Source: Alphaproteobacteria bacterium (GTDB lineage: Bacteria > Pseudomonadota > Alphaproteobacteria > Bin95). From it: DNA of 64,000 nucleotides. Below are positions 2,160 through 53,335 of the stretch, piece after piece. The DNA is taken from positions 1,440,001 through 1,504,000 of the forward strand of contig CAXXPN010000002.1 of the NCBI GenBank assembly GCA_963668305.2, in the 5' to 3' direction. Under the pieces are notes generated by a model. That model was not told the DNA's origin, did not search any database, and saw nothing but the letters and a program-made list of their open reading frames with translations. Position 1 is the first letter of the stretch; each line of letters starts with the position of its first letter. Both the position numbers and the translations under genes were made by a program.

Positions 2160-2345
2160 TGTGGACCTTGACATATGGGGAAATTATGCTATTATGAGAA
2201 CAAAGTAACACGGCTTCTCCCGGGGGCCGCCTTTTCGATTCCGGGGTATGCGGAGGATCGCAAGAAATGCCTGAAGCGGACCGGGAATATGCGCTGCGCG
2301 AAGGTAGCCGCATGACAAAACATGACATTTCATGACAGGCCCCAT
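2160..2345 (+). repeat. Dispersed CATGAC-array element, copy A (promoter-hairpin-micro-ORF-array)
   Basis: TTGACA 2168, TGcTATTAT 2187-2195, hairpin 2211-2235, GGAGG, ORF 2267-2335, CATGAC at 2311/2321/2331; homologous to 53135-53335. Confidence 0.8.
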
Positions 2346-2443
2346 GGGTCGGCCGGATCCCGCTCGCGGGATCGCCGGTTCCGATCCGGGGACGCTGGTA
2401 TAAGGTCGCTTGACCCGGAGGCGCCCGGCGGGAGGCTTCGACC

Positions 2444-3304
2444 ATGAAAGTGACGGTAGCGGCGGTCCAGATGGCGTGTTCGGACCGGACGGATGAGAAC
2501 CTCGACAAGGCGGATCGACTTGTGCGCCAGGCTGCGGCAGCAGGCGCGAACATCGTGTTGCTGCAGGAGATGTTCTCGACCCGGTTCTTCGGCATGCTCG
2601 ACTGGGATTCCGATTATTTCGCCCTGGCGTCAACCGCCGTCGAGAGCGTTTCGGTCCTCCGCATGTCCGCGCTTGCAGCGGAACTCGGCATCGTCCTGCC
2701 GGTCAGCTTCTTCGAACGCGCGAACCAGTCCTATTTCAACAGCGTGACGGTGATCGATGCCGACGGGAAGGAGCTCGGACTCTACCGCAAGTCACACATG
2801 CCGCTCGGTCCGCCGCGTTGCTTCGAGAAATACTTCACGACCCCCGGCAATACGGGATTCCAAGCGTGGGACACCGAGTTCGGCAGGATCGGAGTCGGCA
2901 TCTGCTGGGACCAGTGGTTTCCGGAGTCCGCACGGTGCATGGCGCTGAAGGGCGCCGAGCTTCTGTTCTATCCCACGGCCATCGGGACGGGATGCCGCGA
3001 CCACTGGCAAATCGTCATGCAGGGGCATGCCGGAGCGAATTTCACCCCTCTGGTAGCGGCGAACCGGGTCGGCTCCGAGAGCGGGCCGTTCGGCACCACA
3101 GATTTTTGGGGCGGCTCGTTCATCGCCGACGAGAAGGGTGCGATCGCCGCGAAGGCCAGCGCCGACCGGGACGAGTTCGTTGCCGCTACCTTCGATCTCT
3201 CCGAAATCCGCCGCCAACGGGCCCACTGGGGCCTGTTTCGGGACCGGCGCCCGGACCTGTATGAGACTTTGCTGACCGTGGATGGATGCGCGAACGGCGT
3301 ATGA
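2444..3304 (+). CDS. N-carbamoylputrescine amidase-like carbon-nitrogen hydrolase
   Basis: LQE, YRKSH, GICWDQWFPE, FRDRRPDLY motifs. Confidence 0.8.
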   Translation: MKVTVAAVQMACSDRTDENLDKADRLVRQAAAAGANIVLLQEMFSTRFFGMLDWDSDYFALASTAVESVSVLRMSALAAELGIVLPVSFFERANQSYFNSVTVIDADGKELGLYRKSHMPLGPPRCFEKYFTTPGNTGFQAWDTEFGRIGVGICWDQWFPESARCMALKGAELLFYPTAIGTGCRDHWQIVMQGHAGANFTPLVAANRVGSESGPFGTTDFWGGSFIADEKGAIAAKASADRDEFVAATFDLSEIRRQRAHWGLFRDRRPDLYETLLTVDGCANGV

Positions 3305-3359
3305 GTGCGCACTTCGGGAGAAAAGCTGCTATTTTCGGAGTCCAAGAGGAGGTTTTGAA

Positions 3360-3653
3360 ATGGCCGTAAGAGTGCTTTTTGAAATGAAAGCGAAGCCCGG
3401 CACCGGGGCCGATGTCGTATCGCACTTCCGGTCCATCCTGTCGGAAACCCGTTCCCAGGAGGGCTGCATAAGCGTCGAAGTGCTCCAGAACGGCGACGAC
3501 GCTGACAATCTGGTGTTGTCGGCCGTTTGGGAAACGCGCGGGCACTATGAGAAATATCTGGCGTGGCGGCGGGAGCGGGGCGACAGCGACCGGCTCTTCG
3601 AGGCCCTTACCGAGCGTCCGGGGATCCGCTTTTTCGACCTGACCGACGCCTGA
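3360..3653 (+). CDS. Antibiotic biosynthesis monooxygenase (ABM) family protein
   Basis: 97 aa, TRSQEGC..WET...Y pattern; GGAGG RBS. Confidence 0.8.
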   Translation: MAVRVLFEMKAKPGTGADVVSHFRSILSETRSQEGCISVEVLQNGDDADNLVLSAVWETRGHYEKYLAWRRERGDSDRLFEALTERPGIRFFDLTDA

Positions 3654-51282: not shown

Positions 51283-52262
51283 CCGTCCTGCCGCCTCTGG
51301 CGCTGACTATGGGGGAGCCGGGCGGCGTCGGCGGCGAGCTTGCATTGAAGGCATGGGCTACGCCCGATGTGCCGCCGTTCTTTCTGGTCGGCGATGGGGA
51401 CTGGCTGGGCCGGGTCGATCCGGCTGTACCTGTCCGCAAGATCGAACATCCGGGCGAGGCGGCGCATACATTTGCCGATGCCTTGCCGGTGTTGCCGCTG
51501 CCCTTGACGGCGCCGGTCAGGCCGGGGGCGGCCGATCCCCGGCATGCGCCTGCGGTCGTCGCTTCGATCGAACGGGCCGTGGCGGCCGTCCGTTCCGAGG
51601 CTGCGTCGGCGGTCGTCACACTCCCGATCCAGAAGGAAAGCCTGACGAGTGCCGGCTTTGCCCATCCGGGCCATACCGAATTTCTGGCGGAGCTTACCGG
51701 CGCGCATCGCTCGGTCATGATGCTCGTCGGCAAGGGCCTCCGGGCGGTCCCGCTGACCGTGCACATGCCGCTAGCTGAAGTTGCGGGCCGGCTGACGGCA
51801 GCGCTTGTCGAGGAGACGGCGCGAATCGTCGCGGACGCCCTGCGGGCGGAGTTCGGCATCGCTGCGCCGCGCCTGGCCTTGGCCGGCCTGAACCCCCATG
51901 CCGGCGAGGGCGGCACGCTCGGCGCGGAAGAGGGCGAGGTCATGGCTCCGGCAGCGGCGCGGTTGAAGCGGGAAGGGCTCGACATACGAGGGCCCCTGCC
52001 GGCGGATTCCCTCTTCCACGCCGAAGCCCGGGCCGGGTACGATGCGGTGCTTTGCGCGTATCACGACCAGGCTCTGATCCCGGTGAAGTTGCTCGATTTC
52101 CATGGTGCTGTGAATGTCACGCTCGGCCTGCCGATCGTGCGGACATCGCCGGACCACGGGACAGCGCTGGACATCGCCGGCACAGGCCGCGCCCGGCCGG
52201 ACAGCCTGATTGCGGCCCTGAAACTCGCTCATGCGATGGCAGAGCGCCGGCAAAGTGTCTGA
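51279..52262 (+). CDS. pdxA: 4-hydroxythreonine-4-phosphate dehydrogenase
   Basis: GHTEFLA, NPHAGE, YHDQ, RTSPDHGT. Confidence 0.96.
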   Translation: MTVLPPLALTMGEPGGVGGELALKAWATPDVPPFFLVGDGDWLGRVDPAVPVRKIEHPGEAAHTFADALPVLPLPLTAPVRPGAADPRHAPAVVASIERAVAAVRSEAASAVVTLPIQKESLTSAGFAHPGHTEFLAELTGAHRSVMMLVGKGLRAVPLTVHMPLAEVAGRLTAALVEETARIVADALRAEFGIAAPRLALAGLNPHAGEGGTLGAEEGEVMAPAAARLKREGLDIRGPLPADSLFHAEARAGYDAVLCAYHDQALIPVKLLDFHGAVNVTLGLPIVRTSPDHGTALDIAGTGRARPDSLIAALKLAHAMAERRQSV

Positions 52263-53070
52263 CGGCGGCCTGCCGCGCCCGCAGGAACTGATCCGCCGCT
52301 ACGGGCTGGGCGCCCGGCGCGCGCTCGGCCAGCATTTCCTGCTCGACCCCGGCATCGCAGAGCGCATCGCCCGCGCGGCGGGTTCCCTGGAGGGGCGGAC
52401 GGCGGTTGAGATCGGCCCCGGTCCCGGCGGCCTCACACGAGCGCTGCTGCAGGGCGGTGCGGAGCGGATTGTCGCGGTCGAGCGCGATGCGCGCTGCGTG
52501 GAGGCGTTGGCGGAACTCGCTGCAGCAAGCGGCGGGCGGCTTCGGGTCCTGGCCGCCGATGCGCTCGATGTGGATGTAGCCGCGCTCGGCCCCGCGCCGA
52601 TCAAGCTCATTGCCAATCTGCCATACAATGTTGCGACCCCGCTGCTGATCGGCTGGCTGCGCCGAACGGCCGGGATCGAGTCCATGACCCTCATGTTCCA
52701 GAAGGAGGTTGCGGACCGTTTGGTAGCCCCGCCGGGCAGCAAGGCCCGCGGCCGGCTTTCGATCCTCGTGCAATGGCGCGCCGAGGTCCGCCGCTGCTTC
52801 GATCTGCCTCCCGGGGCCTTCACGCCGCCGCCGAAGGTCGCATCCAGCGTGGTCGCGTTGACGCCGCGCCCGTCGCCAATACCGGCGGCGATGACCGATC
52901 TGGAACAGGTTACGGCCCGCGCATTCGGGGGACGGCGAAAGATGCTCCGCCGCACGCTCGGCGATCTTCCCGCCCGCGCAGGCCTGGACGATACACTCCG
53001 CCCCGAAGCGTTGACGGTAGAGGACTTTTGCGCGCTCGCGCGAGCGATGCGGGAGGGCGGTCCGAAATAG
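52255..53070 (+). CDS. rsmA: 16S rRNA m6,2A dimethyltransferase
   Basis: GQHFLLD, EIGPGPGGLT, ANLPYN. Confidence 0.96.
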   Translation: MSDGGLPRPQELIRRYGLGARRALGQHFLLDPGIAERIARAAGSLEGRTAVEIGPGPGGLTRALLQGGAERIVAVERDARCVEALAELAAASGGRLRVLAADALDVDVAALGPAPIKLIANLPYNVATPLLIGWLRRTAGIESMTLMFQKEVADRLVAPPGSKARGRLSILVQWRAEVRRCFDLPPGAFTPPPKVASSVVALTPRPSPIPAAMTDLEQVTARAFGGRRKMLRRTLGDLPARAGLDDTLRPEALTVEDFCALARAMREGGPK

Positions 53071-53134
53071 CGCCTTCGTTCCTTGCCAGGAGCCGGCGAG
53101 TCCGCAACAGGACCCGACAAGCGATGACGGCGCG

Positions 53135-53335
53135 GCTGCCGGGATCGTTCCGATGTGTCGTGAAGTGTCATGTTTTGTCATGCGATGTCATGAGGTCTCC
53201 TGCGCAGAGGGCATATTGCGTATCCATTTCCGGCATGGCTTCCCGGCTCCTTCGCCTTCCGGAATCGAAAAAAGGCGGCCCCGGAAGCCGCCTCTTCTCT
53301 ACTCCCAGTTTACCATAGCTTTTCCCATGCCGGGG
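53135..53335 (-). repeat. Dispersed CATGAC-array element, copy D
   Basis: Minus-strand TGgTAAACT (53307-53315), hairpin 53273-53293 plus T-run, AAGGAG, ORF 53236-53168, units at 53187/53177/53167/53157. Confidence 0.8.

What the first reader, a model, noticed from the sequence alone, without database searches (positions are those of the whole stretch)
2160..53335. Four-copy dispersed element: promoter - hairpin - Met-Pro ORF - 10-bp-phased CATGAC array
Seen: four intergenic loci (A 2160-2345 +, B 11745-13125 -, C 40445-40895 +, D 53135-53335 -) share one ordered architecture. (1) An extended -10 motif TGnTAnnnT (TGcTATTAT, TGcTAGAAT, TGgTAGGAT, TGgTAAACT), with TTGA 15-16 bp upstream in A, B and C. 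(2) A GC hairpin ending in GGCCGC(C)TT directly downstream. (3) An SD and an ORF always starting Met-Pro. (4) A TGA stop supplied by an array of 3-4 CATGAC hexamers at exact 10-bp spacing (C: CATGACATCG CATGACAAAA CATGACACTT CATGACAATC; D nearly identical). (5) A downstream TCCC(C)GGC in B, C and D. Cargo varies from 22 aa (A, D) to 44 aa (C) and 330 aa (B). I see no terminal inverted repeats, target duplications or transposase. Inference: an unannotated family of self-contained expression units or non-autonomous mobile elements, whose helically phased array could be a binding or nicking site for an oligomeric protein such as the TerS-like product of copy B. Four copies in 64 kb suggests many more genome-wide.
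Basis: partly seen in the sequence, partly recalled or inferred. Interest (0 to 1): 0.85.

Follow-up and report, generated by a model that had tools for sequence, protein, structure and literature searches.

The report
Promoter-to-heptamer-array repeat cassettes
The four loci are real copies of an undescribed family of small DNA cassettes, found in a group of uncultured alphaproteobacteria, that begin with a strong promoter and end in a phased CATGACA array; some copies carry a many-copy phage-like DNA-binding gene, and how the cassettes spread or what they do is not yet known.

Summary
Four arrays of CATGAC(A) at exact 10-bp spacing lie at the stated places (13 pattern hits against 0.19 expected). 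Each lies downstream, on the same strand, of a sigma-70-type promoter, a GC hairpin and an ORF that stops inside the array.

The architecture is a lineage-wide family. I assigned 63 of the 108 loci from a genome scan to it, from 16 assemblies of unnamed Alphaproteobacteria. Every module found keeps the order promoter, optional GC-rich leader, array.

The 5' hairpin covaries. Paralogous copies are alike from just upstream of the -35 to the last CATGACA and unrelated beyond, so this is a discrete copy unit.

The 330-aa cargo of copy B is a TerS-like protein under purifying selection, with up to 4 copies per contig. 108 of 120 homologues end in the array. A second unrelated cargo family uses the same frame, and short units look like internal-deletion derivatives.

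There are no terminal inverted repeats, no transposase and no Rfam, PADLOC or NCBIfam match.

Best reading (inferred): self-promoted duplicative cassettes whose terminal array is the cis site for an oligomeric DNA binder, most plausibly the TerS-like ring. Binding, mobility and transcription remain untested.

The parts
2150..2337 (+). Unit A, short type: -35 TTGACA 2168-2173, extended -10 TGCTATTAT 2187-2195, shortened 5' hairpin about 2205-2236, SD plus 22-aa ORF 2267-2335, array of 3 CATGACA 2311-2337. It lies 106 nt upstream of a CN-hydrolase gene (start 2444), in a divergent intergenic region.
13032..13095 (-). Unit B promoter module: -35 TTGACC 13093-13088, extended -10 TGCTAGAAT 13075-13067, 5' hairpin GAAGCGGC...GCCGCCTTC about 13058-13032.
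12855..12990 (-). Unit B leader (L module): GC-rich conserved block CTCGC(A/G)CGCGCAATCAGGC...GATACGCGCGAAACAGGGTC.
11774..12766 (-). Unit B cargo: TerS-like ORF of 330 aa. Residues 11-82 match Terminase_2; the rest is specific to this lineage. It ends ...RHDIA, with its stop in the array.
11762..11788 (-). Unit B array: 3 CATGACA at 10-bp spacing, followed by TTCCCGGCAGC. The downstream gene (DAO, 10374-11693 +) is convergent.
40445..40545 (+). Unit C promoter module: AT-rich tract GAAATAAATCC, -35 TTGATG 40472-40477, extended -10 TGGTAGGAT 40490-40498, 5' hairpin about 40506-40536.
40566..40728 (+). Unit C leader (L module).
40740..40886 (+). Unit C: 44-aa ORF 40740-40874 and array of 4 CATGACA 40850-40886. 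The ORF is frameshifted relative to its homologues in L023, L020 and L096, so it is doubtful as a conserved peptide.
53156..53345 (-). Unit D, short type: decayed -35, extended -10 TGGTAAACT 53315-53307, long 5' hairpin about 53305-53262, SD plus 22-aa ORF 53236-53168, array 53192-53156 (3 CATGACA plus CACGACA). It lies between convergent genes (AMP-binding enzyme and KsgA).
40894..41173 (.). Not part of the family: a MITE inserted 8 nt after array C. TIRs at 40904-40923 and 41144-41163, flanked by the 10-bp direct repeat GCCTGTCGGG.

Best explanation
What it is (well supported). The four loci belong to a lineage-specific family of discrete, duplicative DNA cassettes of about 0.2-1.4 kb.
- Each begins about 15-60 nt upstream of a sigma-70-type promoter: an AT-rich tract, CTTGAC, then TGnTAnnAT.
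- The promoter is followed at once by a stable stem-loop that would sit at the 5' end of the RNA.
- Next come an optional GC-rich leader, a Shine-Dalgarno site and a variable ORF.
- Each ends exactly at an array of 3-4 CATGACA heptamers spaced 10 bp apart. The spacers are A/T-rich and G-poor.
- Full-length forms carry one of two multi-copy protein genes. One encodes a TerS-like protein (phage small-terminase HTH and oligomerisation core, plus a lineage-specific acidic tail). The other encodes an unrelated protein of about 200 aa.
- The short forms (A, C, D) are internal-deletion derivatives that keep both ends.

How it most likely works (inferred).
- The promoter drives high, stabilised expression of the cargo.
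- Three units at 10 bp place a TGA in every reading frame, so any cargo is terminated there.
- The heptamers lie one helical turn apart on bendable DNA. I read them as the cis-acting terminal site for an oligomeric sequence-specific DNA binder.
- The best candidate is the ring-forming TerS-like protein that the full-length cassettes encode. This parallels pac phages, where terS carries or abuts its own repeat-bearing pac site.
- Binding at the array would mark the cassette end for copying, gene conversion or packaging by machinery encoded elsewhere.
For: Shown.
- Arrays far exceed chance. Nine of the 10 same-strand CATGAC spacings of 40 nt or less are exactly 10.
- Family grammar P -> (L) -> array holds for every module hit: 38 P hits and 47 L hits, across the 63 loci I assigned to the family plus the window.
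- Promoter motifs are conserved while the spacer is not.
- The hairpin is 91.7% paired against 85.2% in shuffles, and 6 of 10 pairs change on both sides. 0 of 500 shuffles reach the observed pairing percentage, double-change cell count or covariation score. G-U pairs are common on the sense strand.
- Position 7 of the unit, which the scan did not require, is A in 277 of 309 units. Spacer G content is 6-9%.
- Copy-unit ends:
  - L025 and L083 lie on one chromosome. Apart from one substitution and two in-frame indels (9 and 63 nt) in an Asp-rich tract, they are identical over the shared ~330 nt up to the last CATGACA, then diverge.
  - L007 and L040 come from one MAG. They are alike from GTTCCC-N8-CTTGAC to the array, with unrelated flanks.
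- TerS-like cargo:
  - Pfam Terminase_2 scores 47.7 bits, on residues 11-82 only.
  - The nearest solved structures are the SF6 small terminase, 4zc3, 2cmp and 3zqp.
  - 330 homologues were found, up to 4 on one contig.
  - dN/dS is 0.17-0.34 in the N-terminal part and 0.43-0.62 in the rest.
  - Paralogues mostly group by contig.
  - 108 of 120 homologues end HDxx, that is, inside the array.
- The second cargo family has 172 homologues, up to 5 per contig, on contigs of the same lengths as TerS-like ones. 62 of 120 end HDxx.
- Truncated derivatives of both cargos retain both ends.

Literature, passages read (PMC4737164). In SF6/SPP1-type small terminases adjacent HTH motifs are about one turn of B-DNA apart, DNA is modelled as wrapping the ring, and the SPP1 pac site holds direct repeats spanning the promoters and the start of terS.
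Against: - No binding, transcription or mobility datum exists.
[quoted passage not shown] A ring that reads a strict heptamer would therefore be a departure.
- No terL, portal or other packaging gene lies in the window or beside any locus examined.
- Most arrays sit in cassettes that lack the TerS-like gene.
- The fixed orientation of array to promoter, the G-poor spacers and the use of the array as the stop codon fit an RNA-level role equally well.
- By my classification, about 28 of 41 classifiable units point into a same-strand gene that starts 44-231 nt downstream. This suggests a promoter or leader role for host genes.
- Sharp similarity ends could reflect gene-conversion tracts rather than transposition.
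- The scan required three perfect hexamers, so conservation of positions 1-6 and the mode of 3 units are partly built in.
Confidence: 0.4

Rival explanations
1. RNA-level device. The units are transcription units (small RNAs, leader peptides or 5' leaders of the downstream gene). The array acts in the transcript as a G-poor, unstructured tract that stops ribosomes in all three frames. It then exposes RNA for a factor such as Rho, RNase E or an RNA-binding protein that reads CAUGACA.
For: - The hairpin covaries with many G-U pairs on the sense strand, so at least the 5' part is selected as RNA.
- Array orientation relative to the promoter is the same in every locus.
- Spacers are G-poor.
- 87 of 97 arrays have TGA in all three frames.
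- Every cargo uses the array's stop.
- By my classification, about 28 of 41 classifiable units face a same-strand gene 44-231 nt away.
Against: - A stop function needs only TGA, yet the whole heptamer is conserved.
- Three to four units (30-40 nt) is short for a Rho loading site (recalled knowledge).
- Units B and D face convergent genes.
- Paralogue similarity includes the untranscribed promoter and ends at the array. This marks a DNA-level unit, though it does not exclude an RNA function.
- No Rfam family matches.
- The leader shows no covariation.
Confidence: 0.22
2. Operator array for a host transcription factor. The heptamers are tandem sites for a regulator that binds head-to-tail direct repeats, such as an OmpR/PhoB-type winged helix or a ribbon-helix-helix protein. 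The units would then form a regulon of portable promoter cassettes. On the reverse strand the core reads TGTCAT, the Pho-box core (recalled).
For: - Strict 10-bp phasing with a conserved 7-mer and free A/T-rich spacer.
- The RHH protein ArtA of plasmid pSK41 recognises CATGACA, and binds a two-site operator as a dimer of dimers (PMC2777438, passages read).
- Variant units in four loci carry GAAC-N7-GAAC boxes over the promoter. I read these as LexA-type SOS boxes (consensus recalled), so regulation of these promoters by host factors is plausible.
- A conserved GCGCATAT(C/T) lies 18-19 nt beyond the array on the reverse strand.
Against: - The Pho-box period is 11 bp (recalled), not 10.
- No -10 element follows the array in the forward direction.
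- The array sits at the 3' end of the unit, 0.1-1.3 kb from its promoter.
- No candidate regulator gene is linked to the units.
- This reading does not explain why copy units end exactly at the array.
Confidence: 0.13
3. Classical non-autonomous transposon. The units are mobilised in trans by a transposase or recombinase encoded elsewhere, and the array is its multi-site end-binding region or a set of arm-type sites. The TerS-like gene is passenger cargo.
For: - Units are multi-copy, dispersed and intergenic, with discrete ends.
- Paralogues cluster within genomes.
- Internal-deletion derivatives keep both ends.
- Tandem 5'-truncated copies lie next to arrays in L008, L030, L058 and L082.
- A different cargo occupies an orthologous site in B versus L073.
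Against: - No terminal inverted repeats and no target duplication seen.
- No transposase or integrase in the window.
- Among the 66 flanking ORFs scanned, only one IS3-type gene was found, in L032.
- The two ends are unlike each other.
- A true MITE in the same genomes shows clear TIRs and a 10-bp duplication, so such marks would have been visible.
Confidence: 0.15
4. Chance, or simple tandem-repeat slippage with no shared architecture.
For: 45 of the 108 scan hits are plain tandem repeats or lie in unrelated phyla such as Streptomyces and Dyadobacter. Most have identical spacers, which shows that the pattern alone also arises by slippage.
Against: - 13 hits against 0.19 expected in the window.
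- Spacers are non-identical.
- Linkage to the promoter and leader modules is constant in all family loci.
- 108 of 120 independently retrieved TerS-like proteins end in the array.
Confidence: 0.01

Closest known systems
terS gene with its pac site in pac-type phages (SPP1/SF6 G1P, Pfam Terminase_2; P1 pac hexamer repeats, recalled)
   Same: - An N-terminal HTH homologous to SF6 G1P.
- A recognition-site-like set of direct repeats lying in or next to the gene.
- Repeat spacing of one helical turn, matching the HTH spacing on the terminase ring (PMC4737164 passages).
- A/T-rich, bendable spacers.
   Different: - No terL, portal or capsid genes nearby.
- The gene is multi-copy in the chromosome.
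- About 215 C-terminal residues are confined to 33 cluster representatives among 1.84 billion proteins.
- The same array closes an unrelated gene and many gene-less cassettes.
- The SF6 domain binds pac DNA without sequence specificity, whereas here a strict heptamer is conserved.
Interspersed intergenic mosaic repeats and promoter-bearing MITE-like elements (BIME/RIME, Correia elements; recalled), and 'putative mobile promoters' (PMC3575422, search listing and start of abstract only)
   Same: - Short, intergenic and multi-copy.
- Modular, with variable module content.
- Carry an outward-reading promoter that often faces a host gene.
   Different: - No terminal inverted repeats or target duplications.
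- The two ends are asymmetric: a promoter at one, a heptamer array at the other.
- Full-length members encode proteins that are not transposases.
- The terminal array provides a stop codon in all three frames.
Direct-repeat operators: ArtA (RHH) operator CATGACA of pSK41; Pho boxes and other OmpR-family sites (recalled)
   Same: - The heptamer is identical to the ArtA core (PMC2777438 passages).
- Sites are head-to-tail at about one helical turn.
- The reverse strand carries TGTCAT.
   Different: - Unrelated host and replicon, and no ArtA-like gene was seen.
- The array is not at a promoter's -35 but at the 3' end of a transcription unit.
- Period is 10 bp, not 11.
Integron gene cassettes
   Same: Variable cargo between conserved flanks; some cassettes stand in tandem (L008, L030, L058, L082).
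   Different: - No attC-type imperfect palindrome and no intI were seen.
- The units are dispersed, not in one array.
- Each full unit brings its own promoter.

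Membership tests
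Phage small terminase (Pfam PF03592 Terminase_2), for the ORF of copy B | N-terminal helix-turn-helix DNA-binding domain matching the family profile above its cut-off | tested here: met
   47.7 bits against a cut-off of 26.1, residues 11-82. PHROG phrog_51 terminase small subunit, E = 1.8e-13. PDB SF6 small terminase 4zc3, 2cmp and 3zqp, E = 2e-4 to 8e-4.
Phage small terminase (Pfam PF03592 Terminase_2), for the ORF of copy B | Full-length match including the oligomerisation core and C-terminal part of the profile | tested here: not met
   - Only profile positions 2-73 of 141 are matched.
- Phage tblastn hits cover residues 3-97 only, in 5 records.
- The C-terminal 215 aa have 33 relatives, all of the same architecture or fragments of it.
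Phage small terminase (Pfam PF03592 Terminase_2), for the ORF of copy B | Genomic company of terL, portal and head genes (a packaging module) | tested here: not met
   Neighbours of B are GSDH and DAO genes. No phage family was found in 49 other window ORFs or in the ORFs flanking the TerS-bearing loci L019, L025, L048 and L072.
Phage small terminase (Pfam PF03592 Terminase_2), for the ORF of copy B | Ring oligomer that binds a cognate pac site | not testable with these tools
There is no DNA-binding tool.
MITE / non-autonomous IS derivative | Terminal inverted repeats | tested here: not met
   No inverted repeat joins the unit ends in A, B, C or D. A true MITE next to C shows them clearly.
MITE / non-autonomous IS derivative | Target-site duplication | tested here: inconclusive
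   None was seen at the ends of the paralogue pairs L007/L040 and L025/L083. No empty site was available for comparison.
MITE / non-autonomous IS derivative | Related autonomous element encoding a transposase | tested here: not met
   Full-length units encode a TerS-like protein or a protein of about 200 aa with no Pfam, NCBIfam or PADLOC match. Flanking genes are housekeeping.
MITE / non-autonomous IS derivative | Short, multi-copy, dispersed, with discrete ends | tested here: met
Any Rfam RNA family | Covariance-model match at or near the gathering score | tested here: not met
   The whole window at gathering thresholds gives only a tRNA and a TPP riboswitch elsewhere. The four loci at E up to 10 give only chance-level hits of 9-18 bits against cut-offs of 45-123.
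Pho box (PhoB operator) | 7-bp CTGTCAT direct repeats with a 4-bp spacer (11-bp period), replacing the -35 of a promoter (definition recalled) | tested here: not met
   The period is exactly 10 in all arrays. The TGTCAT core is present on the reverse strand. No forward -10 follows the array.
Integron cassette | attC recombination site and an adjacent intI with a contiguous cassette array (definition recalled) | tested here: not met
   Units are dispersed over 51 kb of core chromosome. No integrase was found.
Known anti-phage defence systems (PADLOC-DB) | Profile match of the cargo proteins | tested here: not met
   0 families at E up to 0.1 for the TerS-like protein and both family-2 proteins.

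The most novel reading that the evidence does not exclude
The cassettes are a new kind of minimal selfish element with no recombinase: a 'terS plus pac' unit of about 1.4 kb. Its own ring-forming TerS-like protein binds the terminal CATGACA array and recruits a terminase or nuclease encoded elsewhere (a prophage, gene transfer agent or infecting phage). The cassette and adjoining host DNA are then copied, converted into other array-bearing sites, or packaged. The 0.2-0.4-kb units would be its non-autonomous derivatives, scattered as pac-like entry points and strong promoters across the chromosome.
Probability: 0.15. Interest if true: 0.85.

Novelty: new variant of a known kind. Interest (0 to 1): 0.65.

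Why it matters
- If the cassettes are mobile, they spread without any recognisable transposase or inverted repeats. That points to an unknown copying route.
- Their promoter, 5' stabiliser hairpin and three-frame stop amount to a natural portable expression unit. Such a unit can rewire expression of neighbouring host genes.
- A chromosomal, multi-copy, selected TerS-like protein with a likely cognate repeat array would be a new use of phage packaging hardware. It bears on how host DNA gets chosen for packaging in transduction or gene transfer agents.
- For annotation, these units explain many 'hypothetical' small ORFs and mis-called gene starts in these genomes. One example is the MetE-like gene at 41241.

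Tried and rejected
- Rfam: the whole window at gathering score and each locus at E up to 10 gave nothing credible.
- Leader (L) structure: RNAalifold on 32 and on 23 copies found 9 and 12 pairs with almost no covariation (local alifold). The structure is left open.
- Whole-unit folds: D z = -2.47, A z = -0.52, C z = -1.94. Only the 5' hairpin is convincing.
- Cargo proteins: PADLOC and NCBIfam gave no match. The two cargo families are unrelated to each other. Family 2 has no phage tblastn hit and only a weak phrog_31793 match.
Fold and oligomer state stayed unchecked.
- Small ORFs as conserved peptides: copy C is frameshifted against L023, L020 and L096, and L006 has lost the ORF altogether. 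A by-eye comparison of two MPCERPP copies gave 3 non-synonymous to 2 synonymous changes. I do not claim that the peptides are functional.
- Array as a forward promoter: the consensus scan finds only an internal ATGACA-16-GACAAT match, and no -10 follows the array.
- Retrotransposition: rejected, because paralogues share the untranscribed promoter.
- Empty-site comparison: not possible.
- Literature: five full-text searches found no description of this element. A sixth search was rejected for a term that was too long.

Full report
**1. The observation**

The window is a 63-71% G+C stretch of core chromosome. It carries ClpA/B-type ATPase, SmpB, DapA, Dus, HolC, LptF/G, SurA-PdxA-KsgA, PurE and PFK genes.

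CATGACNNNNCATGAC with up to 1 mismatch occurs 13 times against 0.19 expected; 0 of 100 shuffles reach 13. Eleven of the 13 hits form four arrays:
- A: 2311-2337 (+)
- B: 11762-11788 (-)
- C: 40850-40886 (+)
- D: 53156-53192 (-)

Of the 52 CATGAC hexamers in the window, 13 lie in these arrays. Nine of the 10 same-strand spacings of 40 nt or less are exactly 10; the other is 38.

- Extended -10 motifs are as quoted. A -35 TTGAC-like hexamer lies 15-16 nt before the -10 in A, B and C; in D it has decayed.
- A GC hairpin follows directly.
- An SD and an ATG-CCN ORF of 22, 330, 44 and 22 aa follow.
- Each ORF stops at a TGA of the array. B uses another frame than A, C and D.

Three units at 10-bp spacing necessarily place TGA, and ATG, in all three frames.

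**2. It is a family, and wider than the window**

- I set aside 45 loci. They come from other phyla or are plain tandem repeats, mostly with identical spacers (Streptomyces, Dyadobacter and others). The choice was made by rule and by eye.
- The other 63 come from 16 assemblies titled only 'Alphaproteobacteria bacterium' or 'Rhodospirillaceae bacterium'. Each assembly contributes up to 9 loci, which is a lower bound.

Profile searches built from the window's copies found 38 promoter-hairpin modules (P) and 47 copies of a GC-rich leader (L). B and C share this leader.
- Every hit is on the array's strand.
- The order is always P, optional L, array. Some tandem forms read P-L-array-L-array (L008, L030, L058, L082).
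- Within the window, P and L occur only at the four loci.

No locus is close enough to be the window's own genome. The best match is L073, with 86.6% identity over the DAO flank.

**3. Anatomy**

- **P module.** It holds an AT-rich tract (GAAATAATTCC or TTTTCATTTTTTGTTCC), then CTTGAC, then TGnTAnnAT. The spacer sequence is not conserved, which is the pattern expected of a promoter kept by selection rather than by recent copying. From memory, the layout also fits the Caulobacter housekeeping consensus TTGACGS-N10-14-GCTANAWC.
- **5' hairpin.** It starts a few nucleotides after the expected start site.
  - Across 36 copies, 91.7% of cells pair against 85.2% in shuffles. Six of 10 pairs change on both sides.
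  - 0 of 500 shuffles reach the observed pairing percentage, double-change cell count or covariation score. Slid controls pair in 44-73% of cells.
  - Many G-U pairs on the sense strand point to an RNA helix. In D it extends to about 20 bp by pairing the U-run with an upstream purine run.
- **L module.** It is highly conserved but shows no covariation, so its structure is open.
- **Array.** 97 arrays were counted: 93 in the loci and 4 in the window.
  - Units per array are 2 (9 arrays), 3 (63), 4 (23) and 5 (2).
  - Position 7, which the scan did not require, is A in 277 of 309 units.
  - Spacer positions carry 6-9% G in a roughly 67% G+C background.
  - Orthologous arrays differ in unit number: L012 has 3 and L035 has 4.
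- **Downstream motifs.** A GGRG...CYC motif follows 34 of 96 arrays, against 7.9% of random windows. CCCGGC follows 16 of 96, against 5.2%.

**4. Cargo**

*Copy B.* It encodes a protein whose residues 11-82 match Terminase_2. The nearest solved relatives are the SF6 small-terminase DNA-binding domain and oligomer, and phage hits cover residues 3-97 only. The remaining 215 residues have just 33 cluster representatives among 1.84 billion proteins, all of the same architecture or fragments.

The TerS-like family has these properties:
- There are 330 homologues, up to four on one 3.4-Mb contig.
- dN/dS is 0.17-0.34 in the N-terminal part and 0.43-0.62 in the rest.
- Paralogues mostly group by contig in a tree. 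Contig length served as the stand-in for genome; 9 of 23 inner branches are well supported.
- 108 of 120 end HDxx, the residues encoded by CAT GAC NNN NCA TGA, and 106 of 120 start MP.

*Second cargo.* An unrelated cargo (L028, L076; about 200 aa) has no Pfam, NCBIfam or PADLOC match.
- It has 172 homologues, up to five on one contig. They lie on contigs of the same lengths as TerS-like ones.
- 62 of 120 end HDxx.

*Derivatives and swaps.*
- Truncated versions of both genes keep the first codons and the array: L021 and L101 for the TerS-like gene; L007, L012, L035, L073 and L082 for the second family.
- At the site orthologous to B (same DAO flank), L073 carries the second cargo type in truncated form and two arrays.
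- The short ORFs are not convincingly coding. C is frameshifted against its homologues, and L006 has lost the ORF.

**5. The unit is a discrete piece of DNA**

- L025 and L083 lie 34 kb apart on one chromosome. Apart from one substitution and two in-frame indels (9 and 63 nt) in an Asp-rich tract, they are identical over the shared ~330 nt up to the last CATGACA, then diverge.
- L007 and L040 come from one MAG. They are alike from GTTCCC-N8-CTTGAC to the array, with unrelated flanks.
- No inverted repeat links the ends.
- Flanking genes are diverse housekeeping genes. The 66 flanking ORFs scanned include only one IS3-type gene.
- By contrast, a genuine MITE inserted 8 nt after array C shows 20-bp TIRs and a 10-bp duplication. 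It is absent from the orthologous site of L035 relative to L012.

By my classification, 28 of 41 classifiable units point into a same-strand gene that starts 44-231 nt downstream, and 13 face a convergent gene. My hand calculation gives a one-sided binomial p of about 0.014. Start codons were chosen heuristically.

**6. Mechanism**

*Shown.* The architecture, its conservation pattern, the RNA-type covariation of the hairpin, the multi-copy selected cargo, and the copy-unit ends.

*Inferred.*
- The promoter fires and the hairpin stabilises the transcript.
- The array terminates translation of any cargo.
- The heptamers, one helical turn apart and separated by bendable A/T-rich spacers, are bound by an oligomeric protein.

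The TerS-like product is the best candidate, for three reasons:
- Its gene almost always ends in the array.
- In its solved relatives adjacent HTH motifs lie about one DNA turn apart on a ring around which DNA is thought to wrap.
- The SPP1 pac site holds direct repeats spanning the promoters and the start of terS (PMC4737164, passages).

*Against.*
- The same paper finds SF6 binding to be non-specific.
- No packaging genes are linked to the units.
- Most arrays have no TerS-like gene beside them.

*Rivals.* An RNA-level role, a host-regulator operator, and a trans-mobilised transposon remain open and are scored separately.
- The RHH protein ArtA binds the same CATGACA core (PMC2777438, passages).
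- The reverse strand reads TGTCAT, as in Pho boxes (recalled).
- Four variant units carry GAAC-N7-GAAC boxes over the promoter, including one upstream of a TerS-like gene in L048. I read these as LexA-type SOS boxes (consensus recalled), which would hint at DNA-damage control in some lineages.

**7. Comparison and novelty**

The TerS-like protein passes the HTH test for Terminase_2. It fails the full-length and gene-company tests, so it is TerS-derived rather than a working phage terminase subunit.

The units fail the MITE tests for inverted repeats and a transposase parent. They also fail the integron, Pho-box and Rfam tests.

Five literature searches found no description. I rate it a new variant of the interspersed mosaic-repeat or mobile-promoter kind. 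A bolder reading, a recombinase-free terS-pac selfish element, is not excluded.

**8. Limits**

- Only 80 loci have 1.5-kb flanks.
- Copy number in the window's own genome, empty sites, transcription and binding are all untested.

Noticed in passing
window 40894-41173: A roughly 260-bp MITE with 20-bp terminal inverted repeats (40904-40923 and 41144-41163) and a 10-bp direct repeat GCCTGTCGGG, containing an inner 31-nt palindrome (GTCACCCCGGCC...). Pieces of it recur in at least 10 loci of related genomes. It accounts for a roughly 420-bp insertion in L012 relative to L035.
   Followed up: partly
window 41025-42251: The MetE-like (Meth_synt_2) gene most likely starts at 41241, after AAAGGAGGAAACAAG, and not at 41025. 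The longer ORF runs through the MITE, and the Pfam match begins at residue 75.
   Followed up: partly
window 25893-26002 (+): A TPP riboswitch (67.2 bits) lies upstream of an ABC-transporter and NMT1/THI5-like gene cluster (25972-28420).
   Followed up: no
L029:2024, L031:1316, L065:1975, L048:2949: Variant units in more distant genomes carry GAAC-N7-GAAC (a LexA-type box, consensus recalled) overlapping the promoter. In L048 it sits directly upstream of a TerS-like gene. This suggests SOS control of some cassettes.
   Followed up: partly
window 13183-13238: A short block (GCCATGGCCGGACTTGTTCC...) just upstream of unit B matches L072, L021 and L038 at 83-92% identity. It may be another small repeat family and is unexplained.
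   Followed up: no
P modules, about -45 to -75 (e.g. L057, L035, L012; window 40448-40462, 13115-13103): The AT-rich tract upstream of the -35 contains palindrome-like words (TGAAAAAT...ATTTTCA; GGAAATAATTCC). It could be an UP element or a site for a dimeric regulator.
   Followed up: no
all arrays versus P modules: The array heptamer CATGACA differs by one base from the units' own -35 word CTTGACA, and each unit contains TGACA. The simple promoter scan therefore scores ATGACA-16-GACAAT inside array C (40861-40888).
   Followed up: partly
L025 and L083 (same chromosome): Two near-identical TerS-like paralogues differ by in-frame indels of 9 and 63 nt in a long Asp-rich tract. The acidic tail evolves by repeat slippage and is very variable across the family.
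   Followed up: no
L008, L030, L058, L007, about 150-200 nt upstream of P: A further conserved block, ATACCNGCGGTCGTCGACCGGAACC followed by a stop-like TGA/TAA, recurs upstream of several units next to different genes. Its nature is unknown.
   Followed up: no
window 19759-19833 (-): A tRNA-Gly(GCC) gene, with no unit or integration scar beside it.
   Followed up: no
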